64,000 bases of DNA from Syntrophorhabdaceae bacterium (GTDB lineage Bacteria; Desulfobacterota; Syntrophorhabdia; Syntrophorhabdales; Syntrophorhabdaceae): NCBI GenBank assembly GCA_963666485.2, contig CAXXUO010000004.1, forward strand, positions 96,001-160,000, in the 5' to 3' direction. Shown here piece after piece: positions 9,019-30,176 of the stretch (positions within the stretch are counted from its first letter, which is position 1; every line of letters starts with the position of its first letter). The translations under genes and the position numbers were made by a program. The notes below the pieces were generated by a model. It was not told the origin of the DNA. It was given only the letters and a program-made list of their open reading frames with translations, and did no database searches.

Positions 9019-10159
9019 TCATGTCCTGTCAAGCGCATTATTTACCTTCTCGACAACAAACGACTGCTCCGATTCTGTCATGCCAGGGAATAAAGGAAGG
9101 GTGATGGTCGTATCCTCGCCGAGACATGCGTTCGGAAAAACATCCGGGTCTATTCGATACTTATCCGCATAATATCCCAGGCGATGCACCGCCAGCGTTC
9201 CGGGCCTTGTCTGAATATCGTCCAACGAGAGGTGATCCATGATCCTGTTTCTTCTTGACCGTCCTCCATCCAGGAGTCTTATCACATAGGATTGATACGT
9301 GTGATGACATTTTTCGGGAATGACCGGTACGGCAATAGCCTCTATGTGCCGCAGGAATTCTGTATATCTTTCGGCAAGCATGATCCGTTCTTCGAGCAAT
9401 TTATCAAGCTTATGAAGTTGGGCGACCCCAACTGCCGCCTGTATATCGGAAAGCCTGAGATTATAACCCAGATTATTGAATGTAGACATAACCCATGGTT
9501 TTCCTGGATCGTCGATTCCTGGAGGAAGTCCTGTTGCGCCGTGGTTCCTCTGACTTCTTACCCTGGCGGCGATATCAGGTTTGTTCGTGGTGATCATTCC
9601 GCCTTCACCCGTGGTGACGACCTTCCGGGGGTGAAATGAAAAACAGCCCGCATCACCAATTGCTCCCACGGGTTTTTCTCCGTACAACGTGCCTACCGCA
9701 CATGCTGCGTCTTCAATAACAAAGAGGCCATTTTTCGCCGCGATGTCCATGATCTCGTGCATCTTCGCGGAAAGCCCGAAAAGATGTACCACTACTATTG
9801 CCTTTGTCCTGTCCGTGATTGCTCTTTCCAACGCAATGGGGTCCAGGTTATACGTATCAAGCTCAATATCCGCAAAAAACAGCCTTAGCACCGGTGTATT
9901 CCGCGCAGTGAGCCGAAGTCACCCATGTGAATGCCGGTACGATAACCTCGTCGCCGGGTCCGATTCCCAGCGCCAACATGGCAAGGTGTAAGGCGGCCGT
10001 ACAGGAGGTGGTTGCCAGTGCATGATCTACATGATGGCGCTCCGCGAACATCTTTTCAAAACGCTCAACGAACGGGCCCTGGGTCACCCACCCCGAATCC
10101 AGGCATTCCTTGAGAAGAGCTATTTCTTCTTCGTCAAACTTAGGAGCTGTCAGGTTCAT
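9019..10159 (-). pseudogene. DegT/DnrJ/EryC1/StrS sugar aminotransferase split by one +1 frameshift (possibly a sequencing error)
   Basis: ORF 9863-10159 gives the N-terminus (SCTAALHLA, GDEVIVP) and ORF 9019-9891 the rest (IEDAAC, SFHPRK). Removing one base at 9871-9879 restores the frame. Confidence 0.85.
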
Positions 10160-11166
10160 AAACGACCTCTTCCACTAAATATTTTGGTAACCGCTACCCT
10201 CAGGGCGGCTATCATATCATCCGGCAAATCGACATTCACGGAACGATCCAATCGATCTATGCTGTTTTCAGTCGGACTGATGGTACAACCCAGTCTGTCC
10301 AATCCACAGCAAATACTCGACAGCGTGCTGGAAGGTTCAGAGCAAAGCTGCTCGTAAGTGATCTGCAAGGAATTTACATGTACCCCCTTCAATTCCTCGT
10401 CTATTTCCCGCCGGCATTCAAATACCTGCATCGACACGTCATGGACGGGGTCGGGGCCGTGACCCGCAAAGGGCCACGTGGAAGGTTTCAAAGACCACCA
10501 TGTACTATAGGAACCAAAACGTTCGCGCCGTGATTTCAGGATCGACGCTGCTGTCATGAAGGGATCACGTTTGATGTGTATAAAAATGCTTTTGCCGTAT
10601 ATTTCAGTCAGGTATCTTGCCTGAAGGCCGCATATGACATTTTTGAAGACAACGGGGCGCCGAAATTGACCGAGAATTTCATGGATAAGAACTTTTCTTA
10701 GCCCTTCCGCATCGAGTTCCCCCAGATGTTCCTCGGGTATCTTGTGCGTGGGGAATTGATCCAGTTTAAGCCAGTGACGCCAAAAATACCCAAATTCATG
10801 CGGTTCGTGAGCGCCTTCTGTCGTCCCGAAATTAGACCGAAAGGAAATATTACGCCGATAATCATCGCCGAGAAGCATTCCGGATAGCCTAATACCCACT
10901 GACGGCCTCATCCAAAAACGTGCAACAACATTATTGATATATCCCACCGGAAGATAACGGCTCAGCATCTGTGAAAGAAGCGTCGTTCCCGATCTCGGGG
11001 CGCCTACTATATATACGAGAGGGTATTGCGAGTCCTTCGTTTCATCTTCATCAGGAAGGTCCGCTGACTGAAGCACTTCGTTCAATTTTGCTAGATATAC
11101 CTCGTCGGCCGTTTTCTTACGAAACGCAAGTGCCCTTATCCCTGGTTCATGCGGATCAAATTCCAT
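10156..11166 (-). CDS. PAPS-dependent sulfotransferase
   Basis: IVGAPRSGTT 5'-PSB loop, IHIKRDP...S 3'-PB motif, ITYEQLCSEP. Confidence 0.85.
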   Translation of the reverse strand: MEFDPHEPGIRALAFRKKTADEVYLAKLNEVLQSADLPDEDETKDSQYPLVYIVGAPRSGTTLLSQMLSRYLPVGYINNVVARFWMRPSVGIRLSGMLLGDDYRRNISFRSNFGTTEGAHEPHEFGYFWRHWLKLDQFPTHKIPEEHLGELDAEGLRKVLIHEILGQFRRPVVFKNVICGLQARYLTEIYGKSIFIHIKRDPFMTAASILKSRRERFGSYSTWWSLKPSTWPFAGHGPDPVHDVSMQVFECRREIDEELKGVHVNSLQITYEQLCSEPSSTLSSICCGLDRLGCTISPTENSIDRLDRSVNVDLPDDMIAALRVAVTKIFSGRGRL

Positions 11167-15020: not shown

Positions 15021-16570
15021 ACTCTATTGTCCTGGGCCTGAGTTCCTTTATAGGGATAACAAAGCTTCATGACGGGCGATACGATACTCTCATATCGTGG
15101 AGTATCCTCTATCCTCAAGACATGGGCAAACCAGCACTGGCATTCCCTGCACGACGCAATGTCGTTGAATCGACCCGATGAATGGGCCGTCCAGAGATTC
15201 TTTAACGTATCGTTTTGCCGCAGGATCTCCTGCAGCGGGGAATCGGTAATATTGCCGATATACCCCGGGACACCACCATTGCACGGCATCACATCTCCGG
15301 AAGCCTGGACCCAGGCGCATTCTGTAATGAGATTGCACGGCAGGCGGAGCGACCGTTCGGGTTCAAAGAAACACAGGTCCGTTTGATACTTCTTGCTATG
15401 AACCTGCTCATCCATCCTGTTCTCGGGTGAAAGCGCAACATAATCCACTATTTTGAGCCATTGATCGAGGTAGACGTCTGTTTCGTGTTTGTTGCTATCC
15501 TGAACAGTAAATATGACACCTACCTGGGGATTCTTCTTGCCCAGACTGTTTCTCATTTCTATGAGCCGTCTTACATTGGATTCTATGTTTCCAATATCCC
15601 GTCCCGTAATGGTTTTATAAACCTCCGGTGATGCACCGTGCATACTGATCTTTAAGTGATCGACCTCGAGATCTATCAAGACCCGGCTGGCCTTTTCATC
15701 CATTGCCGTGGCATTCGTGGCAAAAAAGCATGCCAGTCCATTCTCTTTGATGACCCTGAGTATCCTCTCGTAGTCCAGATTATAGAATAGTTCACCTCTC
15801 CAGTACGGCACCACCGTTCTGGAGAGAGTATTGTGATAGGGATCGTCCCATTTGGCTATCTCACGAACAGTACGCTCGAACACTTCCAAAGGCATGTCCT
15901 TCTCTTCCTCAGGTCTGATATACCGCGAACCGCTGCTTTGCCTGACGCCGTGATACGGGCACATGAGACAGGAGTTGTTGCACCGTGTCGAGGTCTCGAG
16001 CTGGATCGTCCTCGGCAAATGCATATCCGCCATAAGGGCATATCCTGCAAAAAAGTCTTCTCTGCTATGTTCGAGTTCGATGAAAGACTCATTATCCAGG
16101 AATTCGCTACGGAATTGTTCGATATAGTTTGACCCGCAATTTGATAAATATCCGGCCAGCGAGGAGTTTATGCCCGGTCTCAGTGCTATAAGACCGTCCT
16201 GAACCCCGAAAGGCTGGATCCTGCCGTCAACTGCCATCGGCAGGACATGTTTGCCCGATGAAGAGGAGGCGGACAGGAAGCGTTTGATCCGGGCTGCGGA
16301 CAGATGTATGTTCCAGTCCATGGCCAGAACCACCGGGCCGTTATATTTCCTGCAGAAATCCTCTATGCTTGTCCTTTCAGCATCCGGTAGAACAGGCAGT
16401 TGATCAATATAAGACCCGTATGAGGTGGTCAACAATACCTTTTTTATGCCCGACTCGCGCATCTGCCGGGAGATAAGCGTTATTCTGTTATTTCTCTTTC
16501 GGGCCGGGCCGGAAAAGTCGTTTACAAGAATAAGTCCGGCGACACCCGAATATTTCTTTCTAAAAAACAT
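15017..16570 (-). CDS. Radical SAM/SPASM-domain protein
   Basis: CNNSCLMC (CxxxCxxC); C-terminal PC...GDVMPC...GNI...CRECQC SPASM-like cysteines. Confidence 0.85.
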   Translation of the reverse strand: MFFRKKYSGVAGLILVNDFSGPARKRNNRITLISRQMRESGIKKVLLTTSYGSYIDQLPVLPDAERTSIEDFCRKYNGPVVLAMDWNIHLSAARIKRFLSASSSSGKHVLPMAVDGRIQPFGVQDGLIALRPGINSSLAGYLSNCGSNYIEQFRSEFLDNESFIELEHSREDFFAGYALMADMHLPRTIQLETSTRCNNSCLMCPYHGVRQSSGSRYIRPEEEKDMPLEVFERTVREIAKWDDPYHNTLSRTVVPYWRGELFYNLDYERILRVIKENGLACFFATNATAMDEKASRVLIDLEVDHLKISMHGASPEVYKTITGRDIGNIESNVRRLIEMRNSLGKKNPQVGVIFTVQDSNKHETDVYLDQWLKIVDYVALSPENRMDEQVHSKKYQTDLCFFEPERSLRLPCNLITECAWVQASGDVMPCNGGVPGYIGNITDSPLQEILRQNDTLKNLWTAHSSGRFNDIASCRECQCWFAHVLRIEDTPRYESIVSPVMKLCYPYKGTQAQDNRV

Positions 16571-16582
16571 CGCATTCCCTCG

Positions 16583-19441: not shown

Positions 19442-19467
19442 CGGATAACCAAAACTGCTGCGGCGAA

Positions 19468-20208
19468 CTACTCCTCGCGATCTTCTTTTACCGCCACTGC
19501 CCCCGCAAAAACAAATTTGTCGGGATGAAGCGACACCAACTTCGAATAGATGGACCCAGCGAAATACTTGAACTTTAAAAACGCCCTGTATGATTTGAAG
19601 AATTTCTTCGGATACATCCCGTAATCCTGTGTGTGAACCACCGAAAATCGAGCCTTTTCGAGAGACGCTACCAGTTCATCTCTGTTCCAGTAGGTAGGGA
19701 TCGTCCTGTCCAGCCTCCCCAGTTCGTTATTGATATTATTTTCCGGCCGGCGGGTACTCGATACGAACAACACGCCCCCACGATCGAGGACACGCCTCAC
19801 TTCCTTAAGGGCTTCCAAGGGGCTCTTCATGTAGCATATGGCGCCCATAAAGACACAGACATCGAAGGATGCATCACGAAACGGCAGGGGCATATCTGCA
19901 TCACCGATGACGACCTTCAGCCTGCTGTTATATTTCTCCAGAATAGACCACTGCCTGTAATATCCCCATGAGTCGAACAATGTGATGTTCTTTTTCATAG
20001 CGTTTAGAGAAGCCGCCGTCGTAACTCCCGCAGAGGGGCCGATCTCCAGTATGCGCAGGTCTTTATTCAGGTCGGCGAACCTGGCGATCTGCAAACGGCT
20101 TGCGAAGCCAAGCTGCTTCCTCGGGTTGGTGATATACAGATGATAGTATGTCGCAAGAGTGTCAAATGCATCGGTAGTTCCTAGCCGATATGTCGAGTCT
20201 TTATTCAT
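19468..20208 (-). CDS. Class I SAM-dependent methyltransferase
   Basis: ILEIGPSAG, LPFRDASFDV, ALKEVRRVL. Confidence 0.85.
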   Translation of the reverse strand: MNKDSTYRLGTTDAFDTLATYYHLYITNPRKQLGFASRLQIARFADLNKDLRILEIGPSAGVTTAASLNAMKKNITLFDSWGYYRQWSILEKYNSRLKVVIGDADMPLPFRDASFDVCVFMGAICYMKSPLEALKEVRRVLDRGGVLFVSSTRRPENNINNELGRLDRTIPTYWNRDELVASLEKARFSVVHTQDYGMYPKKFFKSYRAFLKFKYFAGSIYSKLVSLHPDKFVFAGAVAVKEDREE

Positions 20209-20230
20209 AGGCCTTATCGCTATTTAAGAC

Positions 20231-21505
20231 TTATTGTTTTTCAGCCCAGCAGAAAAAATTAATACCCCGGGTGCCTTTTTCCCTGTATCTCATTTCCCCC
20301 CGATACATTGCCATAGCCAGTACTCCATTGATCTTTGAATGTATTGCCTTAAGGGATCGTGACTTCCAGAGCCTTGTCTTCATTTCCGCCAGGGGAAAAT
20401 TCTTAAAATTGAATTTTTCTGCAATGTAAATGAACATGAACCTGGGGTCGCAATTGAATTCATTATATTGCTTAATCCTGAACCCAACGGGTTCCAGGTA
20501 TTTTTCGATCTGAGGTCTTCCAATCAAATTCTGCGTGTACAGTTTCCGATATTCAAAGAAGGTTTTCTTTCCTCCAAACATCTTGTAAATGTGGAACGGA
20601 AACCACTTCTTATAATACAGTTCCGTAAAACCGCTAAAGAAAGCATTGCCGCCCTTGGTCAATATATACTGGAACGCCTGAAAGATCTTTTCCGTTTCAG
20701 GGCTGTCAAAATCATCGATGCTGTGGATCATTACGATCGTCCTATAGGTCCCGTGCTTCAAGGTCTGCGGAACCTTCAGGTCAAAATAGACGAACTCCTT
20801 GTGCGGCAAACGGTCCTGAAATTGCCTGCAATGATCGAAGCAGTATTCCGTGCCGGTCGTAAAACTGTAATTCAGGTAGCATATTGAACTGGCGCCTTCT
20901 CCCACGGCAATCTCGATAGAGGGGTCAACTATTTTCATGCTGCGAAAAAATTCACTGTCAAGATACTGTCTGAAATATTCGGTCAGAAGCGAAGGCCATC
21001 GAGGCTCGGTTAAATCGAAGATCGATTCGTAGAATCTGCAGAAATCCGCTTTATCGAAATCGACGTTTCGAAAAGACAACAGCTCGGGTAAAAACAATAG
21101 CCATGTAAGAATTCGGGTTACTATCCAGAGCAACATTCCGACGGCCGGCCTGTAAACGTCGGCCAGATACTTCCTTATAAGGGGAGGGACAATTCTCTTC
21201 CGCCGGGAAAGAACATACTGCATCCCATTTGACCGGGGATCGGAATTGTTGCTTGAAGAAAAATAGAGAGTATCTTCCCAATGTGAATATCGTCCATTTC
21301 CGTCGTTCACGATCTCCGAATGAAATGAATGCCCCGGGCCTATTTCAGAACTGTCTTCGAACAATTTCCAGGAAGAATGACGAGCATGACCGGAATCATC
21401 TCCCTCAGACTTCGAGAGGGGAAGACGTACTGTATACAAATTGCCGGAGACATGGTATACACCGGCAGGTTGAATCCTTATCTCTTTGTTTATGATATTC
21501 GTCAA
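20231..21505 (-). CDS. SHW..LYFS module fused to a divergent methyltransferase-like domain
   Basis: N-terminal shared module; SIEIAVGEG, HSIDDF, ILTKGG resemble class I MTase motifs. Confidence 0.55.
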   Translation of the reverse strand: MTNIINKEIRIQPAGVYHVSGNLYTVRLPLSKSEGDDSGHARHSSWKLFEDSSEIGPGHSFHSEIVNDGNGRYSHWEDTLYFSSSNNSDPRSNGMQYVLSRRKRIVPPLIRKYLADVYRPAVGMLLWIVTRILTWLLFLPELLSFRNVDFDKADFCRFYESIFDLTEPRWPSLLTEYFRQYLDSEFFRSMKIVDPSIEIAVGEGASSICYLNYSFTTGTEYCFDHCRQFQDRLPHKEFVYFDLKVPQTLKHGTYRTIVMIHSIDDFDSPETEKIFQAFQYILTKGGNAFFSGFTELYYKKWFPFHIYKMFGGKKTFFEYRKLYTQNLIGRPQIEKYLEPVGFRIKQYNEFNCDPRFMFIYIAEKFNFKNFPLAEMKTRLWKSRSLKAIHSKINGVLAMAMYRGEMRYREKGTRGINFFCWAEKQ

Positions 21506-21562: not shown

Positions 21563-22807
21563 TTACTGTCTTCTTATATCGCCCCATTTTGCATCGCCTT
21601 CATACGCATATGGCACCGGGGCGCGCCATGAATAACGCCGCTTTACGAAAAACTTGCGGCATCGTCTCTCCAGGGCGATAATATCACCTTCTTTTCTGAT
21701 CAGTGTGTCCCGGGTAATTCCGAGTGTAAGCCAATATTCACCTGCGCCGAGGAGGAGTTCGTCTGTAGAAATCTCAAACGTGCCTTCCCCGGCCAGGCCA
21801 TCAAAAATAAGTCCCTGTTCATTGCCGTCAGAGCCGGTGATCCAAATACCTTCAGAACTCTCTATTCTATACAAAGGCATGATATCCTGTTTTGGGCTGC
21901 TGCCTTTCCATGAAAAACGGAGTCTGAAGGGCTCTCCCTGCATGAACGTCGTCTTCTCGATTCCATCGTGATCACATGTCTTTATGTCGTAAATCTCTAT
22001 CTCGCCGGTACCTTCACGGTATGACGCGCTGTGAAGAGCATTTTGCAGTTCCTGTTCCGGCTCTTCCGCTTGAGTCCCGTGGATCAATTGCTGCACATAT
22101 TTTTCATAGGCCATGCATACGCCCATTGATACGTCGTAAAACTTCACCTTGCCTTCATGTATCCACAATGCCCGCTGGCAGATACGTTTGACAAGGTCGA
22201 GTGTATGCGAAACAAAAAGAACTGTGGTGCCGCTCCTGCAAATATCGTAGATCCTTTCAAGACATTTGCTGACAAAGTAGGAGTCGCCGGCTGCAAGCGC
22301 CTCATCCAGAATGAAGATATCGGGTTCAATGCTCATTGCTGTTGAAAACGTCAATCTCGCCTGCATCCCGCTTGAATATGTTTTGAAGGGCCTGTCGATA
22401 ACGCTGCGTAACTCGCTAAAATCAATAATGGACTCTACCTTTTTGTCAATTTCGTCACGACTCATCCCGAGGCACATGCCGCCCATATATATATTTTCCC
22501 GTCCTGTATATTCGCTGTGAAATCCGGATCCCAGTTCAAGGATAGCGGATATCTTGCCATCTATATGAACATTACCGGATGTTTTATCGAGAGTGCCTGC
22601 CAATATCTTCAGGAGAGTACTCTTGCCGGCTCCGTTAGGGCCTATGATCCCTACCACCTCGCCTCTTTTTACCTCAAACGAAACATCCTGCAATGCCCAG
22701 AACTGCTCATGAAACGGCTTTCCGGTCACAAGTTCTTTGAACATGTCTTTGGGCTTGTTGTAAATCTTGTACATTTTTGAAAGGTTCTCGACCTTGATAG
22801 CACTCAT
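21563..22807 (-). CDS. wzt: Polysaccharide ABC exporter ATP-binding subunit with C-terminal carbohydrate-binding domain
   Basis: [33 protein letters not shown]; about 170-aa C-terminal extension. Confidence 0.9.
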
Positions 22808-22822
22808 AAATACCGTTCCCTG

Positions 22823-24727
22823 TTATTTCCCTGATATGATCTCTTTACGATAAAGGTATTCAAGGATCTTGTCTAGGATTCCGGAAACATCTTCCGATTC
22901 CGTATTTACCACGATCTCCGGATCGAGCGGTTCTTCATAAGGGGATGAGATTCCGGTAAACTCAGATATCTGACCACTGCGGGCCTGTTGATAAAGTCCA
23001 TGGGGGTCCCTTTGCGCACACGTATCGATGCCGCACTGCACATAGATCTCGATAAAACGGGAACCGTCTATAATTGACCTGACGAAGTCCCGGTCTCTCC
23101 GGAAAGGGGAGATGAAGGTGCATAAGACTATGTTCCCTGCTTCGTAAAAAAGTCTCGCCGTTTCACCTGCGCGCCGTATATTTTCACTTCTGTCCCTGTC
23201 GGAGAACCCGAGATCCCCGCATAATCCATGCCTTAAATGATCTCCATCCAAGAGCATCGTCAGGCAATCCATATCAAAGAGCTGTCTTTCCAGGCGTTGC
23301 GCAATTGTTGATTTTCCCGATCCGGAATAACCCGTAAACCAAAGAACAGCCGCTCCGTGATTATTCCGGAATTCACGTTCCACGCGGCTTATATTGCACT
23401 TGTGCCACACGGCATTTGGCGACCTCATCCTAAGGTCTTCCGTACTGGCAGACTCATTGATAATCTCTCCCAGTGAACGGGAAGCGCCACGGATGACCCC
23501 GGCAGCCACCGTATTGTTGCTCAAGGCGTCTATAAGAATAAAACTGCCCGTTGCCCTGTTCGTTTTGTAATTATCGAAAAACACGGGTTGGGAGGTGCGG
23601 ACCTGCACTCTGCCGATCTCATTGAGACCAAATGTGTCCGCCGCCTCGCGATGCAGGGTGTTCATATCGATCTTATAAGTGATGCTGTCGATAAATGCCT
23701 TTACAGACCGGGTGGTGTGTTTTAGGATATACGGTTTATCACCGGACAGGGGTGTTTCATCCATCCAGCATATCGTGGCGTCGAATTTATTGCTGATGAC
23801 AGGGACGTTATTTTTCCGGACGATCATGTCGCCGCGGCTGACGTCGACCTCGTCCTCCAGGGTCATCACGACAGATTGTGGGCAAAACGCCTCGGGCAGT
23901 TCGCCGTCATATGTCACGATCCGCTTGACGCGGGTGGTGCGGGCCGAAGGCAGGACGATCACCTCCTCGCCCGGCGAAACAGTGCCGGAGACGATCTTCC
24001 CCGCAAATCCGCGAAAATCAAGATGGGGCCGAATAACGTACTGGACGGGAAACCGGAAATCTATAAGGTTCCTGTCGGCTGAAACATGGATGTTCTCCAG
24101 GTAATGCAGCAAGGTCACATCATCATACCACGGCATATTGCCGCTTTTTTCAACGACGTTGTCACCCCTCAGGGCAGAAACAGGGATGAAGACGATGTCG
24201 TGGACGTCAAGCTTTTCCGAGAACTCGCCATACTCCTCCACTATCCCATTGAACACATCCTCGGAATAATCGACAAGATCCATCTTGTTGACGGCCACCA
24301 GGATCCTCGGTATCTGCAGGAGCGATGCGATGAACCCGTGGCGCTTCGACTGGGTCAGCACCCCATTTCTGGCATCGATAAGGATAATGGCGCAATCGGC
24401 TGTCGACGCGCCTGTCACCATATTGCGCGTATATTGAACATGTCCCGGCGTATCGGCTATGATGAACTTTCTTTTCGCCGTCTCAAAATAGCGGTATGCG
24501 ACATCGATAGTGATCCCCTGCTCCCGCTCCGCGGACAGTCCGTCGAGCAGTAACGCCAGGTCTACGTCTGCCAGGCCCTTGCGTTCCGATGTCTTCTGTA
24601 TGGCGGCATACTGGTCTTCATAGATGGATTTCGTTTCATACAGCAGGCGCCCGATAAGGGTGGATTTCCCGTCATCGACGCTGCCCGTCGTCGTAAAACG
24701 CAATATTGACTTTTCCCCGCCAGGCAC
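22823..24727 (-). CDS. cysNC: Bifunctional sulfate adenylyltransferase subunit 1 / APS kinase (NodQ-like)
   Basis: TTGSVDDGKSTLIGRL, DTPGH, NKMD; second domain WFTGYSGSGKST, LDGD, FTGISSPYE. Confidence 0.95.
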   Translation of the reverse strand: MPGGEKSILRFTTTGSVDDGKSTLIGRLLYETKSIYEDQYAAIQKTSERKGLADVDLALLLDGLSAEREQGITIDVAYRYFETAKRKFIIADTPGHVQYTRNMVTGASTADCAIILIDARNGVLTQSKRHGFIASLLQIPRILVAVNKMDLVDYSEDVFNGIVEEYGEFSEKLDVHDIVFIPVSALRGDNVVEKSGNMPWYDDVTLLHYLENIHVSADRNLIDFRFPVQYVIRPHLDFRGFAGKIVSGTVSPGEEVIVLPSARTTRVKRIVTYDGELPEAFCPQSVVMTLEDEVDVSRGDMIVRKNNVPVISNKFDATICWMDETPLSGDKPYILKHTTRSVKAFIDSITYKIDMNTLHREAADTFGLNEIGRVQVRTSQPVFFDNYKTNRATGSFILIDALSNNTVAAGVIRGASRSLGEIINESASTEDLRMRSPNAVWHKCNISRVEREFRNNHGAAVLWFTGYSGSGKSTIAQRLERQLFDMDCLTMLLDGDHLRHGLCGDLGFSDRDRSENIRRAGETARLFYEAGNIVLCTFISPFRRDRDFVRSIIDGSRFIEIYVQCGIDTCAQRDPHGLYQQARSGQISEFTGISSPYEEPLDPEIVVNTESEDVSGILDKILEYLYRKEIISGK

Positions 24728-25683
24728 TAGAAGTAGCCTTCCTTCTTCTTCTGTTCCATCGATGAGTCGCTCGTCAGGTCAATGATGCGGTTTTCGCGTT
24801 CTGACTTGCGGGCACGCCTCACCTCGCCAATGATACCGTCTATTGTCGTCGATCCCGATTCGATCGCACCCGTGCACGGAATACATCCGAGGCTCCGGAA
24901 ACGGCTCATGACAATTTCGACCTCTTCGCTATCAGTTCCCTCGCCCTGCCCGTCACCCCCTGGCGTCCCCTTCCCCCCTGGGCCATTCACGGTTGAACAG
25001 GAAGACACCGGGATCAGGATCCCCTTTCTTCGGATCACGGGCCTTTCCTGTGCGTAATAGATGGGCACTATAGGTATGTTCTCGAGTTTTATATATTGCC
25101 ACACATCCTGTTCCGTCCAGTTGCTTAAAGGAAAGACGCGGACGGTCTCACCCTCATTTATGCACGTATTGAACAGGTCCCAGACCTCGGGCCGCTGGTT
25201 CTTGGGGTCCCATTGTCCATGCGGATCTCTAAGAGAAAAGACCCTCTCTTTTGCCCTTGATTTCTCTTCGTCCCTTCGTGCCCCGCCAAACGCGGCGTCA
25301 AAACCATGCTTCCTGATGGCGTCGAGCAGCGCCCCCGTCTTAAGGTAGCTGCAGCATTTGTCGACCCCTATCTTCAACGGATGGCATCCGTTCTCGATCA
25401 TCTCCTCGTTGCGTTCCACTATCAGCCTGGCCCCGATCTCCCGGCAGAAGCGGTCCCGGAATTCGTACATCTCCGGGAACTTGAAGCCGGTGTCTACGTG
25501 CATCAACGGAAAGGGGAATTTCCCCGGATAAAAAGCCTTCTGGGCAAGCCTGACCATAACGCTCGAGTCTTTTCCCACGGAATAAAGCATGACGGGATTC
25601 TGAAATTCGGCAACAACTTCCCGCATTATATGTATGGATTCGGATTCGAGCTGCCTGAGAAAAGAGATGGTGTAAGAACTCAT
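24727..25683 (-). CDS. cysD: Sulfate adenylyltransferase subunit 2
   Basis: [46 protein letters not shown]. Confidence 0.96.
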
Positions 25684-26537
25684 CAGCTGATCTCGCCGCT
25701 TATGTATGCTTTTGTTCTTTCATCTTTTGGATCGTTCAGGAATTGAACTGCGGGACCGTATTCAACCAATTCTCCCATGTAGAGAAAGACAATATAGTCG
25801 GCGATCCTTTTTGCCTGCCGGAGAATATGGGTCACGACAATTATCGTGTATTTCTGTTTCAGCAATCTGAACTGCGCCTCGACGAGCTTCGCCGAGATGG
25901 GATCCAGCGCAGACGTCGGTTCGTCGGCGAGAATGATCTCCGGCTCGATGGCGAGCACGCGGGCGAGTGCCAGTCTCTGCTGCTGGCCGATGGAAAGCTT
26001 CGAAGCAGGCGCGTGCAGCCTGTCCTTCACCTCTTCCCAGAGTCCTGCCAACCTCAGGTAATACTCTACGAGGAGATTCATTTCCCGCTCTTTGTTCCCT
26101 TTTTTGATTGTTTCTTTCTTTTCAAAGAAACCGTCAAAAACATGGTTGAATTTTTCTTTCTCCGATATCTTTTCGAAGATGTTGCCACCGTTGATCTTAT
26201 GGATGCGCGGCCCGAAGGCTATGTTGTCATATATGGACATGGGTAAGGGGTACGGCCTCTGGGGCAGGAACCCCACCCTCTTCCTGAGGTCTATAACATC
26301 GGTCCCGCTCCCGTAGATATCGGTCCCGTCTATATATATGTCCCCCGTCACCCTGACATCCTCGTTCAACTCAAGAAGCCTGTTCATACTCTTGAGAAGC
26401 GTGGTTTTTCCGCACCCGGATGGCCCGATAATAGCGATTATCTGTTTTTCCGGAATATCAAGGATGATGTTTTGGAGGACCTGGTGGCTCCCGTAGGACA
26501 CCGTCAAGCCGTCCACATGGATTGTTGACATGAACAA
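25683..26537 (-). CDS. pstB: PstB-like ABC ATPase
   Basis: [36 protein letters not shown]. Confidence 0.85.
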
Positions 26538-26540
26538 GCC

Positions 26541-27389
26541 TTATCGAATGAGGTGCTTCGAAAATCTCCAGCCCAGAAAACGGGATACGATACTCACAAG
26601 CAATACGATCATGAGAAGTATAAGCGCCGAAGCGAAGGCCCTTTCCTGGACCTCCGGTACAGGGGTGCCGGCCTGGAAGAACACGGCAAGCGGCAGTGAC
26701 GCGACGGGATCCAGCAAAGACCCCGGTATCTCATCCGTGTACCCGGCGGTAAATAGTATCGATGCGGCATCGCCGATGCCGCGTCCGAACGCCAAAATCA
26801 CCGCGGTGCAGATCCCGGGGAATGCCTGCCTGAATATCACTGAAAAGGTCGTTTCCAACCGGGTAGTGCCGAGGGCGTACGATACCTCCTTTAGCTCGAA
26901 AGGGACCATACGGATCGCCTCTTCCATGGACCTGATCATAATGGGCAGCATAAGAAGCGTCAGCACAATTATCCCGCCCAACAGCGAAGCACGCAGCCCG
27001 AAATAGACCATAACAACGAATCCGAAAGCGCCATAGACGATCGAGGGCGTTCCCCAGAGTATATCGAGTATCAAACGCGTATAATCCCCGAAAATCCTGT
27101 GCGTGTACTCCTTCTGCAGGGCAAGCGCCACGGGGAGGCTGATCATTATCGCGATGATCAAAGAGCCCGACACAAGCAGGAATGAACCGACGATCGCGTT
27201 TGCGATTCCCCCTTCCCTTCCCAGGTAATAACCTCCCTTCGGAGTGCTGAAGATCATGGAGAGGTTCATGGCCGAAAATCCTTTAGCGGCAATGACCATG
27301 ACGATACCGACCAGGGACAAAAGGACAACTGTCACCGAAGCGATCATCAACGCTTTGAATATGTTTTCTTCCAGATTCCTTGAATTCAC
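26541..27389 (-). CDS. pstA: PstA-like ABC permease
   Basis: GGIANAIVGS, PSIVYG, EVSYALG EAA-like loop. Confidence 0.85.
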   Translation of the reverse strand: MNSRNLEENIFKALMIASVTVVLLSLVGIVMVIAAKGFSAMNLSMIFSTPKGGYYLGREGGIANAIVGSFLLVSGSLIIAIMISLPVALALQKEYTHRIFGDYTRLILDILWGTPSIVYGAFGFVVMVYFGLRASLLGGIIVLTLLMLPIMIRSMEEAIRMVPFELKEVSYALGTTRLETTFSVIFRQAFPGICTAVILAFGRGIGDAASILFTAGYTDEIPGSLLDPVASLPLAVFFQAGTPVPEVQERAFASALILLMIVLLVSIVSRFLGWRFSKHLIR

Positions 27390-28307
27390 TCAGTCTCCGG
27401 AAACACTAAGCCTCAATAGGGTAAAATGCGCCGTAACGCTGAAACCGGCGACGATCAGGAGCAGTATGAGCGCTGCGAGCATCAAGGCGGAATCGTACAG
27501 TGGGATCGACATGACCTCCCCGTAATTATTTGCGATCAAGGCAGGTAACGGGTATGCGGCATCGAAAATGGACGACGGTACCTGCGGAACGTTTCCGACA
27601 ACCATCAATACGGCCATGGTCTCGCCGAAGGCCCGCGCAAACCCGAGGACCACCGCGGCAATGAGCCCTCTTCTGGACTTTCGCAGCACAACATATTTCA
27701 CCGTCTCCCACCTCGTTGCCCCCAGGGCCAGTGCAGATTCACGTACCTGTGCGGGTACCATCCTCAGCACCTCCAGAGAAACAGAGATAACGAACGGGAC
27801 GACCATAACCGCCAGAATGATCCCGCCCGACAACAGGCTGTATCCGGTTGTGTCCATCCCCAGCAATTCGCCGATCTTGCCGACAAACGGCACTACTACC
27901 AGAATTCCGCAAAGTCCGTAGATAACGGAAGGTATTCCGGCCAGTATGTCGATGATGAGATGTGCGAATTCGCGAAAATGCCTGTGAGCATACTCTGACA
28001 GGTAAATAGTGCTCAAAAGACAGATCGGCATCGAGATGACCATGGCAAGCAGTGTGACCTCGACCGTGCTCACGATAAAGGGAAAAAGTCCGAATTGATT
28101 GTTGAGCGGATGCCATGACGAAGACAGCAAGAGACGTGCCAGGGACGTCCCGGATATGATCGGTAACGATTTAAGCAACAAACCAAAAAGAATTATGAAA
28201 AACACTACACTGACAAATATCAGGCTGCAGCGCATTCCAAGGCTGGCGACGAAGTCCTTGGACCGTCTGATGCGAAGCCAGCCTTTCATACCGCCATTAC
28301 CGGCCAA
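27390..28307 (-). CDS. pstC: PstC-like ABC permease
   Basis: LAGIPSVIYG, RESALALGATRWE, ARAFGETMAVLMVVGN. Confidence 0.88.
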   Translation of the reverse strand: MAGNGGMKGWLRIRRSKDFVASLGMRCSLIFVSVVFFIILFGLLLKSLPIISGTSLARLLLSSSWHPLNNQFGLFPFIVSTVEVTLLAMVISMPICLLSTIYLSEYAHRHFREFAHLIIDILAGIPSVIYGLCGILVVVPFVGKIGELLGMDTTGYSLLSGGIILAVMVVPFVISVSLEVLRMVPAQVRESALALGATRWETVKYVVLRKSRRGLIAAVVLGFARAFGETMAVLMVVGNVPQVPSSIFDAAYPLPALIANNYGEVMSIPLYDSALMLAALILLLIVAGFSVTAHFTLLRLSVSGD

Positions 28308-29298
28308 GCTTTTTCAATGCCTCTCTGGCCTGGCCTTGCTTTATCTTCAGATACCCAACCTCATCGACGTACCGCTGCCCATCGGATAGGATCCATTTCA
28401 CGAAATCCATTGCAGGGCCCTGGAACTGCCCTTTTGTGACGAGATAAAGATCCCGTGCAGGAGGCGAAGGATAGACTCCCGAATTGACCGCCTCTATGGC
28501 CTCGTGCTTATTCCTGAGCCTTTCCTGGGGATCGATCTTGCCGTTCTCGTTCACATCGATCGGGACCACCTGGAGTCCAGGGACCGGTTTGCCGGTTTTC
28601 ATGTCAAAGGCATAGTTAAGATTGTTGAACCCAATCGCGTTCTTGTCTTTTCTTACAGCTTCGGCGACACCCGGATCGCCGTACACGGCGACACCCTTAA
28701 GGTCCTCCTGGTTCTTTCCAAAGTATTTCGCCCAGGTTTCCGCGGCACCACATGAATCGGACCTGGTGTAGACCCTGACCTTTTGATGGGCCGATGTTCC
28801 TGCAAGTTCTCCCCAGGTCATGGACCGTCCGGATATCCACAGATCCACAAGTGTCTTCTTTCGTATTCCTTTTTCCAGTATCTGCGGAAGAACAGGATTA
28901 TCTTGATTTATAGTGGGGAAAACCGCGTCTTTCACGACGGCGACGGAGAAGACGCCCCGTTTCGCCTCCTCGGGCCTGATCTCGCGGGAAACCATTCCAA
29001 TATCGACGAATCCGTTCGTGGCATCCACGATACCCTTTCCGGCCCCTCCAGCCGAAACGTCTATCCGGACCTTCGGATAGATTTTCTTATACTCTTCGGC
29101 CCATTTGACCATCATGGGATAGAGGGCCCATGCTCCCGAAACTCTGATCGTCCCTTGCACCAGGCCAATTTGTGCTGCTTTGCCCTGTCTTTGTTGCCCC
29201 CCTTCAGACGCGTTGACAACAGACAACCCCAGGAAGAACAGAAAAAGTCCACATAGGATGATCAAACAACGTTTTGTGCCTTGATATCGCGTGCGCAT
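28297..29298 (-). CDS. pstS: PstS-family periplasmic oxyanion-binding protein with an atypical binding site
   Basis: Likely start ATG at 29298 (MRTRY...) followed by a signal/TM segment; SGAWALYP, GGAGKG, DIGMVSR, RSDSCGA, YP..RDLY. Confidence 0.8.
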   Translation of the reverse strand: MRTRYQGTKRCLIILCGLFLFFLGLSVVNASEGGQQRQGKAAQIGLVQGTIRVSGAWALYPMMVKWAEEYKKIYPKVRIDVSAGGAGKGIVDATNGFVDIGMVSREIRPEEAKRGVFSVAVVKDAVFPTINQDNPVLPQILEKGIRKKTLVDLWISGRSMTWGELAGTSAHQKVRVYTRSDSCGAAETWAKYFGKNQEDLKGVAVYGDPGVAEAVRKDKNAIGFNNLNYAFDMKTGKPVPGLQVVPIDVNENGKIDPQERLRNKHEAIEAVNSGVYPSPPARDLYLVTKGQFQGPAMDFVKWILSDGQRYVDEVGYLKIKQGQAREALKKLGR

Positions 29299-29327: not shown

Positions 29328-30176
29328 CTACAGAACGTTCCCAAACATGACCTTCAGCTTTCGGAATATCCGGTACCCAACATAGAACGTTCCTACGCTG
29401 AGACAGATATAGACAACCCAGGCCCACCAATGTTCAAATCGGCCGAAATAGAATATATCCTGATAGCACCAGGCGAGATAGCTAAAAGGATTGAGATACA
29501 AAAGGGGGCGAAAGATTGCCGGTACCTGGTCGGGTAAATAAAAGATCGGCATGATATACATGCCCAGCAAACAGAAAACTTGTGTGAAGTCTTTGAGGTC
29601 GCGAAAATAGGTCCCGATCGAGGAAAGGACATACGACATGCCGATCATGCCCAGGACCTGGAAAAAGACCGGCACCGGGATAAGTACGTATGTCCACAGA
29701 AGCCCCTTGTGAGTGATAAGAACATACAGGATCAAAAATACTGTCAGTATGATCTGGGTGACGAGTGATGATATGACAGTCTTGATAGGAAGGACCTCTA
29801 CGGGAAAAATGACCTGCTTTACAAGATTCGAGTTTCCCGTTATTGATGTCGTGGACTTCATCATGGTTTCCTGGAATGCCATCCAGGGGATGAGGGCGCA
29901 TAATAAATAGGTCGTGTAATCCAGGGGAAGTTTATATGTCCCCCCGATCTTCATCTTGAAAACGTAGGCAAAAATGAAAACATAAACGGCGATAAGCGCG
30001 AGGGGATGCCCTACCGCCCAGAAAAGTCCGAATAATTGCCCGGCATACCGTTCCGATATCTCCCTCTTCGACATTTCCCATGTCAGTTGGCGATGCCGCG
30101 TCAGGAGACTTAATATTTCCTGAATAGCGGCAAAATGATTCTTTACATTAAATACTTTGCTGATAAGCACTTTCAT
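29328..30176 (-). CDS. wzm: Polysaccharide ABC exporter permease
   Basis: REISERYAGQLFGLFW, NLVKQVIFP, FRDL, PIFY, LNP. Confidence 0.9.
   Translation of the reverse strand: MKVLISKVFNVKNHFAAIQEILSLLTRHRQLTWEMSKREISERYAGQLFGLFWAVGHPLALIAVYVFIFAYVFKMKIGGTYKLPLDYTTYLLCALIPWMAFQETMMKSTTSITGNSNLVKQVIFPVEVLPIKTVISSLVTQIILTVFLILYVLITHKGLLWTYVLIPVPVFFQVLGMIGMSYVLSSIGTYFRDLKDFTQVFCLLGMYIMPIFYLPDQVPAIFRPLLYLNPFSYLAWCYQDIFYFGRFEHWWAWVVYICLSVGTFYVGYRIFRKLKVMFGNVL

What the first reader, a model, noticed from the sequence alone, without database searches (positions are those of the whole stretch)
22823..29298. pstSCAB-like transporter coupled to cysD-cysNC and lodged between wzm and wzt
Seen: the order is wzm-pstS-pstC-pstA-pstB-cysD-cysNC-wzt. 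The pstB stop overlaps the cysD start (TGATG at 25681-25685), cysD overlaps cysNC, and no phoU or phoBR is present. Known: wzm and wzt are normally adjacent, and pst operons usually belong to the Pho regulon. Inference: a 6.5-kb import-and-activate cassette in which a Pst-family system supplies sulfate for PAPS synthesis and glycan sulfation.
Basis: partly seen in the sequence, partly recalled or inferred. Interest (0 to 1): 0.8.

Follow-up and report, generated by a model that had tools for sequence, protein, structure and literature searches.

The report
Phosphate-type importer likely repurposed for sulfate
A transporter that looks like the classic bacterial phosphate pump sits in one operon with the enzymes that activate sulfate, inside a surface-sugar gene cluster, and has lost the residues that recognise phosphate, so it most likely imports sulfate to make sulfated sugars.

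Summary
On the minus strand the order is wzm, PstS-like binding protein, pstC, pstA, pstB, cysD, cysNC, wzt. The genes are packed tightly (TGATG and TAGTG overlaps), and a sulfotransferase lies downstream in the same glycan cluster.

The genome has three ordinary pst operons with phoU elsewhere. This cysD/cysN copy is its only ATP sulfurylase.

The binding protein belongs to a distinct clade (at least 490 species) that falls below NCBI's PstS cut-off. Five of the six hydroxyl side chains that hold phosphate in S-type PstS are replaced. Both proposed proton acceptors are alanine.

Among 80 related loci:
- phoU is adjacent in 0.
- cysD/cysN follows pstB in 28, and these belong to at least two cysDN lineages.

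In sister genomes the same slot before cysD holds a TauE-family permease or Sbp-CysTWA. A TauE-family member has been shown experimentally to take up sulfate.

Best reading (confidence about 0.65): a Pst-derived ABC importer that supplies sulfate for PAPS synthesis and glycan sulfation.

Points against:
- No uptake or binding experiment exists.
- Most Chloroflexota loci lack cysDN and carry an ambiguous two-component system plus a Na/Pi-cotransporter-like gene.
- The position between wzm and wzt is peculiar to this genome.

My literature searches found no description of such a system.

The parts
29328..30176 (-). wzm: ABC-2 type permease of a glycan exporter
   Evidence: PF01061 ABC2_membrane, 48.8 bits against a cut-off of 26.9. 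Its best NCBIfam match is the galactan export permease Wzm/RfbD, below cut-off.
28297..29298 (-). PstS-like periplasmic binding protein (333 aa, Sec signal peptide). It belongs to a divergent clade with an altered anion pocket. Proposed role: sulfate-binding protein.
   Evidence: PBP_like_2, 101.4 bits. TIGR02136 scores 113.1 bits, below its 206.6 cut-off. The start codon and signal peptide were read. Pocket residues were mapped.
27390..28307 (-). PstC-like permease
   Evidence: TIGR02138, 252.5 bits against 196.45. The residues equivalent to E. coli PstC R237 and E241 are kept in 60 of 60 clade rows (the E. coli residue numbers are recalled).
26541..27389 (-). PstA-like permease
   Evidence: TIGR00974, 197.9 bits against 193.45. 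The R220 equivalent is kept in 75 of 75 rows. The E224 equivalent is Asp in 75 of 75 rows, while the genome's own canonical PstA proteins have Glu.
25683..26537 (-). PstB-like ATPase with an insert of about 32 aa and an LS[IV]GQ signature
   Evidence: TIGR00972, 308.7 bits, below its 343.2 cut-off and matched in two stretches.
24727..25683 (-). cysD: small subunit of sulfate adenylyltransferase; the only copy in the genome
   Evidence: TIGR02039, 434.6 bits against 396.6. tblastn and PF01507 searches of the whole genome find no second copy.
22823..24727 (-). cysNC: GTPase subunit fused to APS kinase, which makes PAPS
   Evidence: NF004035, 916.1 bits against 715. The APS_kinase domain covers residues 460-608.
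21563..22807 (-). wzt: ATPase of the glycan exporter, with a C-terminal carbohydrate-binding domain
   Evidence: ABC_tran, 86.1 bits. Wzt_C, 52.1 bits against 30.4.
10156..11166 (-). Sulfotransferase; the likely user of PAPS in the same cluster
   Evidence: PF13469 Sulfotransfer_3, 52.3 bits against a cut-off of 27.

Best explanation
The four pst-like genes encode a binding-protein-dependent ABC importer. It descends from the phosphate system PstSCAB, but its binding protein no longer recognises phosphate and most likely binds sulfate.

Proposed sequence of events:
1. The periplasmic protein captures sulfate.
2. PstC/PstA-like permeases and the PstB-like ATPase bring it in.
3. CysD and CysN adenylylate it to APS.
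4. The fused CysC domain phosphorylates APS to PAPS.
5. The cluster's sulfotransferase puts the sulfate on a glycan.
6. Wzm/Wzt export the glycan.

What is shown:
- the gene order and tight packing;
- family memberships;
- loss of the phosphate-ligating hydroxyls;
- absence of phoU at these loci;
- linkage to and co-occurrence with cysDN;
- displacement by known sulfate transporters in sister genomes.

What is inferred: sulfate as the substrate, co-transcription, and the sulfated glycan as the end product.

The host appears to be a member of the Syntrophales (nearest relatives). Searches for PAPS_reduct and NIR_SIR domains found no evident assimilatory sulfate reduction pathway, so the cassette would serve sulfation alone.
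For: (1) Pocket residues. S-type PstS proteins bind phosphate through the side-chain hydroxyls of Ser15, Thr17, Thr45, Ser63, Ser146 and Thr148 (SphX numbering). Thr17 and Thr148 are the proposed proton acceptors. Thr17Ala abolished phosphate binding and Thr148Ala strongly reduced it. Neither SphX nor PstS1 responded to sulfate. These points come from passages of PMC13614923 read. The HMM alignment to C. perfringens PBP-1 (4q8r numbering) and the MAFFT alignments place the clade's residues at those positions:
- Ala56 (80 of the 80 rows with a residue there, among 81 rows)
- Ala58 (80/80)
- Ala86 (81/81)
- Ser104 (81/81)
- Cys183 (74/81; Ala in 7)
- Ala185 (81/81)
An invariant Lys88 is gained. 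The genome's own three canonical PstS proteins keep the Thr/Ser set.

(2) The binding protein scores below the curated PstS cut-off (113.1 against 206.6). In the tree the clade sits on a branch apart from canonical PstS (SH-aLRT 99).

(3) phoU is adjacent in 0 of 80 loci. Canonical pst-phoU operons lie elsewhere: three in this genome and one each in G001, G002 and G004. PhoU is far from the Pst-like locus in 5 of 5 other genomes.

(4) cysD/cysN follows pstB in 28 of 80 loci, which is 28 of the 65 with enough flank. Eighteen carry a CysD 68-80% identical to the window's. Nine carry a CysD of 33-43% identity, and one has cysN alone. The loci include ANME-1-type archaea. The cysDN label needs 7 changes on the tree, at least 5 of them forced by well-supported branches. 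An APS kinase lies beside the binding-protein gene in L047, and a CysQ-like phosphatase follows cysNC in L033.

(5) Distribution in the order, 96 genomes. Fourteen have the clade and 19 have CysD. Thirteen have both. A further CysD genome, G015, shows a pstB-like gene cut off at a contig end. Only 1 of the 77 CysD-negative genomes has the clade.

(6) Displacement by known sulfate transporters.
- In G061, G071, G049, G360 and G275, a cysD-cysNC pair about 75-78% identical to the window's is preceded directly by a TauE-family permease.
- In G067 the order is S49 peptidase, Oxidored_molyb, TauE, AlkP/NPP, cysD, cysN, DUF2304, GT2. This is the order seen in L017 and L019, with TauE where the PstSCAB-like genes stand.
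- In G013, Sbp-CysTWA lies in the same cluster as CysH-cysD-cysN.
- A TauE-family protein restored growth of E. coli delta-cysA (PMC11535334, passages).

(7) This genome has no Sat. It has no CysT/W permease above cut-off and no Sbp. Its two other CysT/ModB-type ABC systems (permeases of the molybdate/sulfate/tungstate kind) score as molybdate/tungstate types.

(8) In the 5 Chloroflexota genomes searched out of the 8 loci with an Sbp-like gene, all 5 have Sat and none has CysT/W above cut-off. In all 8 loci the Sbp-like binding protein follows the pstB-like gene.
Against: - There is no binding, uptake or expression measurement. No RNA run holds the stretch.
- 37 of the 65 informative loci have no cysDN beside the transporter. 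No Chloroflexota locus does.
- Nine loci carry both a histidine kinase and an OmpR-type regulator upstream. The regulator cluster is present in 11 loci. The regulator's matches include PhoB (174.1 bits against a 296.2 cut-off). The kinase's matches include PnpS and PhoR. All are below cut-off.
- Ten loci carry a Na/Pi-cotransporter-like gene (PF02690, 39.3 bits against 29.1).
- PstC and PstA pass NCBI's equivalog cut-offs for the phosphate system. They keep the charged residues known from E. coli.
- Arg179, Asp181 and Ser104 of the pocket are retained.
- Trp57 (Phe in 9 rows) and Cys183 (Ala in 7 rows) are not invariant, so no single residue can be named as a sulfate ligand.
- The motif GAWALYPM was one of the two patterns used to collect the loci. 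Conservation at residues 54-61 is therefore partly by construction.
- The genome holds one SulP-family gene (122.5 bits against a 380 cut-off) that might import sulfate.
- No genome in the order has both Sbp and the clade (0 of 14 against 8 of 82). About one overlap would be expected by chance, so this is weak support.
- Related genomes are not independent, and adjacency inflates co-occurrence.
- The AlphaFold model was too poor to inspect the pocket.
Confidence: 0.65

Rival explanations
1. It is still a phosphate importer: an extra Pst system with lower affinity or different regulation. Its place beside cysDN would then reflect co-transfer with glycan clusters, or a phosphate need of envelope synthesis.
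For: PstC and PstA score above the curated phosphate equivalog cut-offs. The equivalents of PstC R237/E241 and PstA R220 are conserved. Arg179, Asp181 and Ser104 are kept. Some Chloroflexota loci carry an OmpR-type two-component system and a Na/Pi-cotransporter-like gene.
Against: Both proposed proton acceptors of S-type PstS are Ala, and five of the six ligating hydroxyls are gone. The single Thr17Ala change abolished phosphate binding in SphX (PMC13614923). phoU is adjacent in 0 of 80 loci. This genome already has three pst-phoU operons. TauE and Sbp-CysTWA occupy the same slot in sister genomes.
Confidence: 0.1
2. It imports another tetrahedral or sulfur oxyanion, such as thiosulfate, selenate, sulfite, molybdate or tungstate, and sulfate is not the physiological substrate.
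For: Replacing Ser/Thr by Ala/Gly enlarges the pocket and makes it less polar. A near-invariant Cys (74 of 81 rows) and a Trp/Phe line it. Three Syntrophorhabdus-type loci have a molybdopterin-domain oxidoreductase upstream. Eight loci have a second binding protein of the Sbp/CysP type, as E. coli has for thiosulfate (the E. coli pairing is recalled).
Against: CysDN acts on sulfate, and it is the commonest functional neighbour (28 of 80). This genome has separate Mod/Wtp-like and TupABC-like systems. Molybdate or tungstate would not explain the co-occurrence with CysD.
Confidence: 0.2
3. The cassette is a decaying or non-functional passenger that was inserted into the wzm-wzt pair.
For: No close relative shows the same insertion between wzm and wzt. 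The PstB signature motif departs from LSGGQ.
Against: All eight reading frames are intact and tightly coupled. The clade's pocket residues, and the PstB insert's position and the LS[IV]GQ signature in the rows inspected, are conserved. The clade is conserved across more than 490 species in several phyla.
Confidence: 0.03

Closest known systems
PstSCAB-PhoU, the high-affinity phosphate ABC importer (E. coli K-12 b3724-b3728)
   Same: The architecture is the same: one binding protein, two permeases and one ATPase, in the same gene order. PstC and PstA score above the NCBIfam equivalog cut-offs. The charged permease residues are kept.
   Different: No phoU (0 of 80 loci). The binding protein and the ATPase fall below cut-off. 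The phosphate-ligating Thr/Ser residues are replaced. PstB carries an insert of about 32 aa. The operon is joined to cysD-cysNC.
S-type PstS proteins: SphX of Synechocystis and PBP-1 of C. perfringens (PDB 4GD5/4Q8R)
   Same: These are the closest solved relatives (4gd5, E = 2.6e-19). Ser stands at the position of E. coli Asp56. The Asp-Arg pair of the triad appears to be kept, as D124 and R282. Both are invariant in alignment A1. The D124 match is seen in the alignment. The R282 match is my own reading and was not shown by an alignment.
   Different: The Thr/Ser at the centre of the triad is Ala at both positions (Ala58 and Ala185). The other hydroxyl ligands, except Ser104, are also lost. 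SphX binds phosphate and did not respond to sulfate (PMC13614923).
SulT: the Sbp/CysP-CysTWA sulfate/thiosulfate ABC importer
   Same: The proposed job is the same: ATP-driven, binding-protein-dependent sulfate uptake feeding CysDN. In G013 it lies in the same cluster as cysDN.
   Different: The families differ. Here the binding protein is PBP_like_2, not SBP_bac_11. The permeases reach only 50-54 bits on the CysT/sulfate-permease models (TIGR02139, TIGR00969), whose cut-offs are 240-246.
CysP of Bacillus subtilis, a sulfate permease of the PiT phosphate-transporter family
   Same: It is a precedent for a phosphate-transporter family giving rise to a sulfate transporter, with the residues critical for phosphate not conserved (PMC5840216 and PMC11535334, passages).
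   Different: CysP is a secondary carrier, not an ABC system with a binding protein.
TauE/TSUP-family sulfate uptake protein TK06_RS10770 of Pseudomonas fluorescens
   Same: A TauE-family gene occupies the slot directly before cysD in sister genomes. One member of the family complements E. coli delta-cysA (PMC11535334).
   Different: The protein family is unrelated. I did not compare the sister genomes' TauE genes with TK06_RS10770 itself.
Dedicated CysDN(C) copies for sulfation, such as rhizobial NodPQ and Xanthomonas RaxPQ (recalled, not checked here)
   Same: A second-purpose sulfate-activation module sits beside sulfotransferase genes and does not serve cysteine synthesis.
   Different: As far as I recall, those systems have no importer of their own. 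Here the cysDN copy is the only one in the genome.

Membership tests
PstSCAB phosphate ABC importer | Binding protein of the PstS family above the curated cut-off | tested here: not met
   TIGR02136 scores 113.1 against 206.6 and TIGR00975 scores 62.8 against 205. Only the broad Pfam family PBP_like_2 is met (101.4 against 27).
PstSCAB phosphate ABC importer | Two permeases, PstC and PstA | tested here: met
   TIGR02138, 252.5 against 196.45. TIGR00974, 197.9 against 193.45.
PstSCAB phosphate ABC importer | PstB ATPase above the curated cut-off | tested here: not met
   TIGR00972, 308.7 against 343.2, matched in two stretches around an insert of about 32 aa.
PstSCAB phosphate ABC importer | A proton acceptor for phosphate in the pocket: Asp56 in D-type proteins, or Thr/Ser of the Asp-Arg-Thr triad in S-type proteins | tested here: not met
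   Ser stands at the Asp56 position. Ala58 and Ala185 stand at the Ser13/Thr131 positions of PBP-1 (Thr17/Thr148 of SphX).
PstSCAB phosphate ABC importer | Linkage to phoU / the Pho regulon | tested here: not met
   phoU is adjacent in 0 of 80 loci. It lies elsewhere in this genome and in 5 of 5 others. Pho-box promoters were not searched. A two-component system of uncertain identity stands at 9 loci (kinase and regulator together), and its regulator at 11.
PstSCAB phosphate ABC importer | Phosphate transport activity | not testable with these tools
   This needs an uptake or complementation assay.
SulT sulfate ABC importer (Sbp/CysP-CysTWA) | Binding protein of the Sbp family and permeases CysT/CysW | tested here: not met
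   The binding protein gives no SBP_bac_11 match. The pstC-like permease scores 50.1 (TIGR02139, CysT), 53.7 (TIGR00969) and 44.6 (TIGR02140, CysW), against cut-offs of 240-329. The pstA-like permease scores lower still.
CysDN(C) sulfate-activating complex | CysD, plus a CysN GTPase with an APS kinase domain, above curated cut-offs | tested here: met
   TIGR02039, 434.6 against 396.6. NF004035, 916.1 against 715.
Wzm/Wzt ABC-transporter-dependent glycan export | An ABC-2 permease, plus an ATPase with a Wzt_C carbohydrate-binding domain | tested here: met
   PF01061, 48.8. PF00005, 86.1. PF14524, 52.1 against 30.4.

The most novel reading that the evidence does not exclude
The Pst (phosphate) ABC family has produced a high-affinity sulfate importer. 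It would add a family to the five sulfate-uptake families listed in PMC5840216 (SulT, SulP, CysP/PiT, DASS, CysZ/TSUP). It is spread through at least 490 species of mostly anaerobic bacteria and archaea. Its specificity was switched by removing the Thr/Ser proton acceptors that S-type PstS proteins need for phosphate. In Syntrophales and related anaerobes it is the dedicated sulfate supply for PAPS-dependent, or kinase-less, sulfation of cell-surface glycans.
Probability: 0.6. Interest if true: 0.75.

Novelty: new variant of a known kind. Interest (0 to 1): 0.62.

Why it matters
- Annotation pipelines call these genes phosphate transporters (names listed). If they import sulfate, phosphorus and sulfur budgets inferred from hundreds of genomes of anaerobes would be misassigned.
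- A natural PstS variant that rejects phosphate and takes sulfate would be a clean test of how binding proteins tell the two anions apart. It would extend the D-type/S-type framework of PMC13614923.
- Sulfated glycoconjugates have been measured in anaerobic granular sludge, but the genes behind them are poorly known (PMC10483923, passages). This cassette, in relatives of Syntrophus and Smithella, gives a genomic marker for that capacity.
- The claim can be tested directly by complementing E. coli delta-cysA.

Tried and rejected
- **Structure prediction.** The binding protein was folded with the 30-row alignment A1. Mean pLDDT was 62.9, pTM was 0.45, and the pocket loops scored under 50. The model is too poor for a fold search or a look at the pocket, so I made no fold search.
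- **RNA evidence.** No RNA holder is listed. The four runs that hold the stretch are contigs from one study. I did not lay reads.
- **An empty wzm-wzt site in the same genus.** The best wzt relatives are only 38-40% identical (2 of 19 other genomes), so no comparator exists.
- **Earlier notes of this scan by place and by sequence.** Nothing relevant turned up.
- **Protein Atlas.** It gave no usable hit for the 952-aa ORF. For the 424-aa ORF it gave only methyltransferase look-alikes.
- **Mutual exclusion of Sbp and the clade in the order.** The counts are 0 of 14 against 8 of 82. About one overlap is expected by chance, so I do not use this as evidence.
- **Host as a sulfate reducer.** I considered this because of a DVU_1556-like methyltransferase match. 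I rejected it because the genome has no Sat.
- **Literature searches.** No paper links a Pst-type system to cysDN or to sulfation. The library lacks most subscription journals, so this does not prove the idea is unpublished.
- **ANME sulfur paper (PMC6286981) and Methanothermococcus paper (PMC10322725).** I searched both for transporter terms. Neither mentions a Pst-type system.

Full report
**1. What is in the window**

All genes of the finding lie on the minus strand and are intact. Family scans identify them in order:
- wzm, 29328-30176
- a PstS-like binding protein, 28297-29298
- pstC, 27390-28307
- pstA, 26541-27389
- pstB, 25683-26537
- cysD, 24727-25683
- cysNC, a CysN GTPase fused to APS kinase, 22823-24727
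- wzt, with a Wzt_C carbohydrate-binding domain, 21563-22807

The longest ORF of the binding protein starts at a TTG inside wzm. An ATG at 29298 follows a ribosome-binding site and opens a typical signal peptide.

The junctions are as described. They read TGATG at pstB/cysD and TAGTG at cysD/cysNC, with 15 bases before wzt. Promoter-like and terminator-like matches in the region are not clearly above the shuffled expectation.

The surrounding 40 kb is a glycan cluster. Upstream lie nucleotide-sugar enzymes. Downstream lie two methyltransferases, a radical SAM/SPASM protein, glycosyltransferases, a carbamoyltransferase and a Sulfotransfer_3 protein at 10156-11166.

**2. The rest of the genome**

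The assembly is 99% complete.
- tblastn finds three more pst operons. Each has PhoU beside it: C3 near 151.4-151.9 kb, C3 near 179.9-180.5 kb, and C1 near 774.5-775.1 kb.
- Their binding proteins are canonical. Two resemble E. coli PstS and one is of the S-type.
- The cysD and cysN genes of the window are the only copies, and there is no Sat-type ATP sulfurylase.
- The only other PAPS_reduct match lies next to genes whose best matches are phage-defence kinases and a phosphorothioated-DNA restriction enzyme. It scores far below every curated cut-off.
- The only NIR_SIR match is a 218-aa protein.
- No CysT/W permease passes its cut-off, and no Sbp was found.
- The two other CysT/ModB-type ABC systems (permeases of the molybdate/sulfate/tungstate kind) score as molybdate/tungstate types.
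- One weak SulP-family gene exists (122.5 bits against a 380 cut-off).

The organism therefore seems to activate sulfate only through this cassette, and these searches found no evident pathway to reduce it. That fits a role in sulfation.

**3. The binding protein is not an ordinary PstS**

It reaches 113.1 bits on the PstS-family model TIGR02136, whose cut-off is 206.6. More than 120 database proteins are 62-80% identical to it. Most come from Syntrophaceae and Smithella metagenome bins, where sources call them phosphate-binding proteins or SphX.

They come from Thermodesulfobacteriota, Chloroflexota, Armatimonadota, Acidobacteriota, KSB1, NC10, Bathyarchaeia and ANME-1-type archaea.

A recent paper gives the frame for reading the pocket (PMC13614923; passages read).
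- D-type PstS proteins accept the phosphate proton with an aspartate.
- S-type proteins have Ser at that position and use a Thr/Ser centred Asp-Arg triad.
- In SphX the side-chain ligands are Ser15, Thr17, Thr45, Ser63, Ser146 and Thr148.
- Thr17Ala abolished binding, and Thr148Ala reduced it strongly.
- Thr17 and Thr148 correspond to Ser13 and Thr131 of C. perfringens PBP-1.

The profile alignment to that protein (chain 4q8r, whose index matches the paper's numbering) puts Ala58 of the window's protein on Ser13 and Ala185 on Thr131.

Alignment with E. coli PstS and the genome's own PstS proteins (E. coli residue numbers are recalled) gives this map:

| E. coli PstS | Window protein |
|---|---|
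| Thr10 | Trp57 |
| Phe11 | Ala58 |
| Ser38 | Ala86 |
| Asp56 | Ser104 |
| Arg135 | Arg179 |
| Asp137 | Asp181 |
| Ser139 | Cys183 |
| Gly140 | Gly184 |
| Thr141 | Ala185 |

Across the 81 clade rows:
- Ala56 and Ala58 are found in 80 of 80 rows with a residue there.
- Ala86, Lys88, Ser104, Arg179, Asp181 and Ala185 are found in 81 of 81.
- Cys183 is found in 74 (Ala in 7).
- Trp57 is found in 71 (Phe in 9).

Residues 54-61 lie inside one of the search motifs, so their conservation is partly by construction. The other positions do not lie in a motif.

In short, five of the six phosphate-binding hydroxyls are gone, both proposed proton acceptors are alanine, and a lysine is gained. Sulfate carries no proton, so a pocket without acceptors suits it. 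That last step is inference.

**4. The membrane and ATPase parts**

PstC and PstA pass their curated cut-offs. They keep the equivalents of PstC Arg237/Glu241 (60 of 60 rows) and PstA Arg220 (75 of 75). PstA Glu224 is Asp in 75 of 75 rows, where the genome's canonical copies have Glu (residue roles are recalled). This fits a small oxyanion substrate and does not separate phosphate from sulfate.

PstB falls below its cut-off. It carries an insert of about 32 residues and reads LS[IV]GQ where canonical PstB reads LSGGQ.

**5. Neighbours of the clade (80 loci, each with up to 10 kb on either side)**

- tblastn finds the full S-C-A-B set in 73 of 80 loci. Five of the other seven end within about 100 bases of the binding-protein or pstC gene. 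L046 has about 1.3 kb more, without a pstC match. L069 has the binding protein alone.
- phoU is found in 0 of 80, using the genome's own PhoU as query at E <= 1e-8.
- cysD and/or cysN lies within a few kb downstream of pstB in 28 of 80. Fifteen loci have under 2.5 kb of downstream sequence and no cysDN, which leaves 28 of 65 informative loci.
- Eighteen of the 28 carry a CysD 68-80% identical to the window's, mostly with a full-length cysNC match. Nine carry a CysD of 33-43% identity, and one has cysN alone.
- In 5 of those 28 loci, a phosphodiesterase/AlkP-fold gene stands between pstB and cysD.
- Other recurrent neighbours (cluster counts, families):

| Neighbour | Loci |
|---|---|
| Rrf2 regulator directly upstream (best sub-family match CymR, 101.8 bits against a 195 cut-off) | 10 |
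| Sbp-like binding protein directly after pstB (TIGR00971, 109.7 against 155.5) | 8 |
| TauE | 3 |
| Sulfotransferase within 6 kb | 5 |
| APS kinase beside the binding-protein gene | 1 (L047) |
| CysQ-like phosphatase after cysNC | 1 (L033) |

Pointing the other way:
- Nine loci have a histidine kinase together with an OmpR-type regulator upstream, and the regulator cluster is present in 11 loci. Their matches are spread over MtrA, RpaB, YycF and PhoB, and over WalK, PnpS and PhoR, all below cut-off.
- Ten loci have a Na/Pi-cotransporter-like gene.
- Many Chloroflexota loci stand among unrelated genes.

**6. Tree**

In a quick maximum-likelihood tree of 81 clade rows and 4 canonical PstS proteins, the clade is one side of a branch with SH-aLRT 99. 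The outgroup branches are very long, so the root within the clade is unsure.

The window's protein falls in a group of 10 rows from Syntrophaceae and Smithellaceae, all with cysDN. A supported group of 35 rows holds 26 of the 29 cysDN rows. The other three are two archaeal rows and one Holophaga row. The label needs 7 changes, at least 5 of them forced by supported branches.

**7. Distribution in the order (96 genomes)**

- The clade is present in 14 genomes, including only 1 of the 19 other species of the window's genus.
- CysD is present in 19.
- Thirteen genomes have both. In 9 of them the two genes lie 3-5 kb apart. In 3 they lie 14-18 kb apart on one contig.
- Of the six genomes with CysD alone, G015 has a pstB-like gene (67% identical) cut off at a contig end, followed by AlkP/NPP, cysD and cysN. 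It probably belongs with the thirteen.
- One genome, G029 (92% complete, 330 contigs), has the clade but no CysD match.

Related genomes are not independent, and adjacency explains part of this pattern.

**8. Displacement**

This is the most telling comparison.
- In G061, G071 and G049, a cysD-cysNC pair 75-78% identical to the window's is preceded directly by a 250-aa TauE-family permease.
- A sample of 401 genomes of the phylum gave 34 with a close CysD, including this genome. I looked at 29 loci. Two of the three closest have the same TauE gene in that slot, and one more distant locus has a TauE-like gene. Seven have CysH upstream. Three have an APS-kinase-like match. Sixteen show nothing my queries recognise. 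None has pst-like genes.
- In G067 the order is S49 peptidase, Oxidored_molyb, TauE, AlkP/NPP, cysD, cysN, DUF2304, GT2. Loci L017 and L019 have the same order with the four pst-like genes in the place of TauE. L017 has one extra unclassified ORF before cysD, and L032 shows the same order without an Oxidored_molyb match.
- In G013 a canonical Sbp-CysT-CysW-CysA set lies in one cluster with sulfite reductase, CysH, cysD and cysN.
- A TauE-family protein of Pseudomonas fluorescens restored growth of E. coli delta-cysA, and its authors concluded that it is a sulfate uptake transporter (PMC11535334, passages).

The slot before cysDN is therefore filled by a sulfate importer of one kind or another, and the pst-like genes are one of the fillers.

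**9. Chloroflexota**

I searched 5 of the 8 genomes that carry an Sbp-like gene after pstB.
- None has a CysT/W permease above cut-off (best 91.2 bits against 240).
- All five have a Sat-type ATP sulfurylase elsewhere. In one it is split into three pieces.
- None has a strong PAPS_reduct match.

They activate sulfate and lack the usual ABC permease. This agrees with the reading but does not prove it.

**10. Comparison with what is known**

A review of sulfate transporters lists SulT, SulP, CysP/PiT, DASS and CysZ/TSUP, and no Pst-type system (PMC5840216, passages). CysP of B. subtilis is a precedent for a phosphate-transporter family turned to sulfate.

Six literature searches found no paper that links a Pst-type system to cysDN or to sulfation. 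The library lacks most subscription journals.

Sulfated glycoconjugates have been measured in anaerobic granular sludge, and their genes are called poorly known (PMC10483923, passages).

**11. Verdict**

The system works like a sulfate ABC importer, with confidence about 0.65. By descent it is a Pst system that fails three of the five defining tests of the phosphate transporter that I could run: the binding-protein cut-off, the proton acceptor and the phoU linkage. Its ATPase also falls below cut-off.

I class it as a new variant of a known kind.

The position between wzm and wzt is a local rearrangement. In three relatives (L040, L044, L051) wzm follows cysNC, and in L044 and L051 wzt comes right after it. 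No close wzt orthologue exists in the genus.

What remains open:
- the substrate itself;
- the meaning of the two-component system and the Na/Pi-like gene in Chloroflexota;
- the roles of the PstB insert, Lys88, Trp57 and Cys183.

Noticed in passing
window 25683-26537 (-): The PstB-like ATPase has an insert of about 32 aa after the Q-loop region. Its ABC signature reads LS[IV]GQQQR, where E. coli PstB and three of the genome's four canonical PstB copies read LSGGQQQR. The two clade rows inspected, L009 and L040, have the insert at the same place with a variable sequence.
   Followed up: partly
window 16583-19441 (-): A 952-aa ORF inside the glycan cluster has no Pfam or NCBIfam match and no usable Protein Atlas hit.
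   Followed up: partly
window 15017-21505 (-): Directly after wzt come four genes: a 424-aa protein that the Atlas places with class I methyltransferases, a 246-aa methyltransferase, the 952-aa unknown, and a radical SAM/SPASM protein. They could make the chain-end modification that the Wzt_C domain reads. This is speculation.
   Followed up: partly
window 9019-9891 (-) and 13337-13861 (-): A DegT-type aminotransferase ORF matches only profile positions 89-359, and a 174-aa ORF matches only part of Glycos_transf_1. These may be truncated or frameshifted genes. About 1.1 kb between 13861 and 15017 has no ORF of 150 aa or more.
   Followed up: no
L054, L055, L061, L064, L065, L085, L087, L088 (downstream of the pstB-like gene): In Chloroflexota an Sbp-like binding protein, a Na/Pi-cotransporter-like protein and a Usp protein follow the pst-like operon. 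None of the 5 such genomes searched has a CysT/W permease above cut-off. An Sbp-type protein may dock on PstCA-like permeases.
   Followed up: partly
L017, L019 (and L032 without the Oxidored_molyb match); L103 (G067): A conserved module reads S49 peptidase, Oxidored_molyb, a transporter, AlkP/NPP-fold enzyme, cysD, cysN (without kinase), DUF2304, GT2. The transporter is either the PstSCAB-like set or TauE. This matches the kinase-less sulfation module noted earlier in this scan.
   Followed up: partly
G000 C3:147.3-151.9 kb, C3:179.9-184.0 kb, C1:774.5-779 kb: The genome carries three canonical pst operons with phoU. One of them has two pstB genes, and one has a histidine kinase gene upstream.
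   Followed up: partly
L091 (G000 C9:482000-486500): The only other PAPS_reduct-domain gene of the genome lies beside a protein that matches a MAD6/PglW-type defence kinase and a phosphorothioated-DNA restriction enzyme. This is probably a defence island and not sulfur assimilation.
   Followed up: no
G490 C1:187125-187759: The Sat-type ATP sulfurylase of this Chloroflexota genome matches in three consecutive pieces in different open frames. This may be a frameshifted gene or an assembly error.
   Followed up: no
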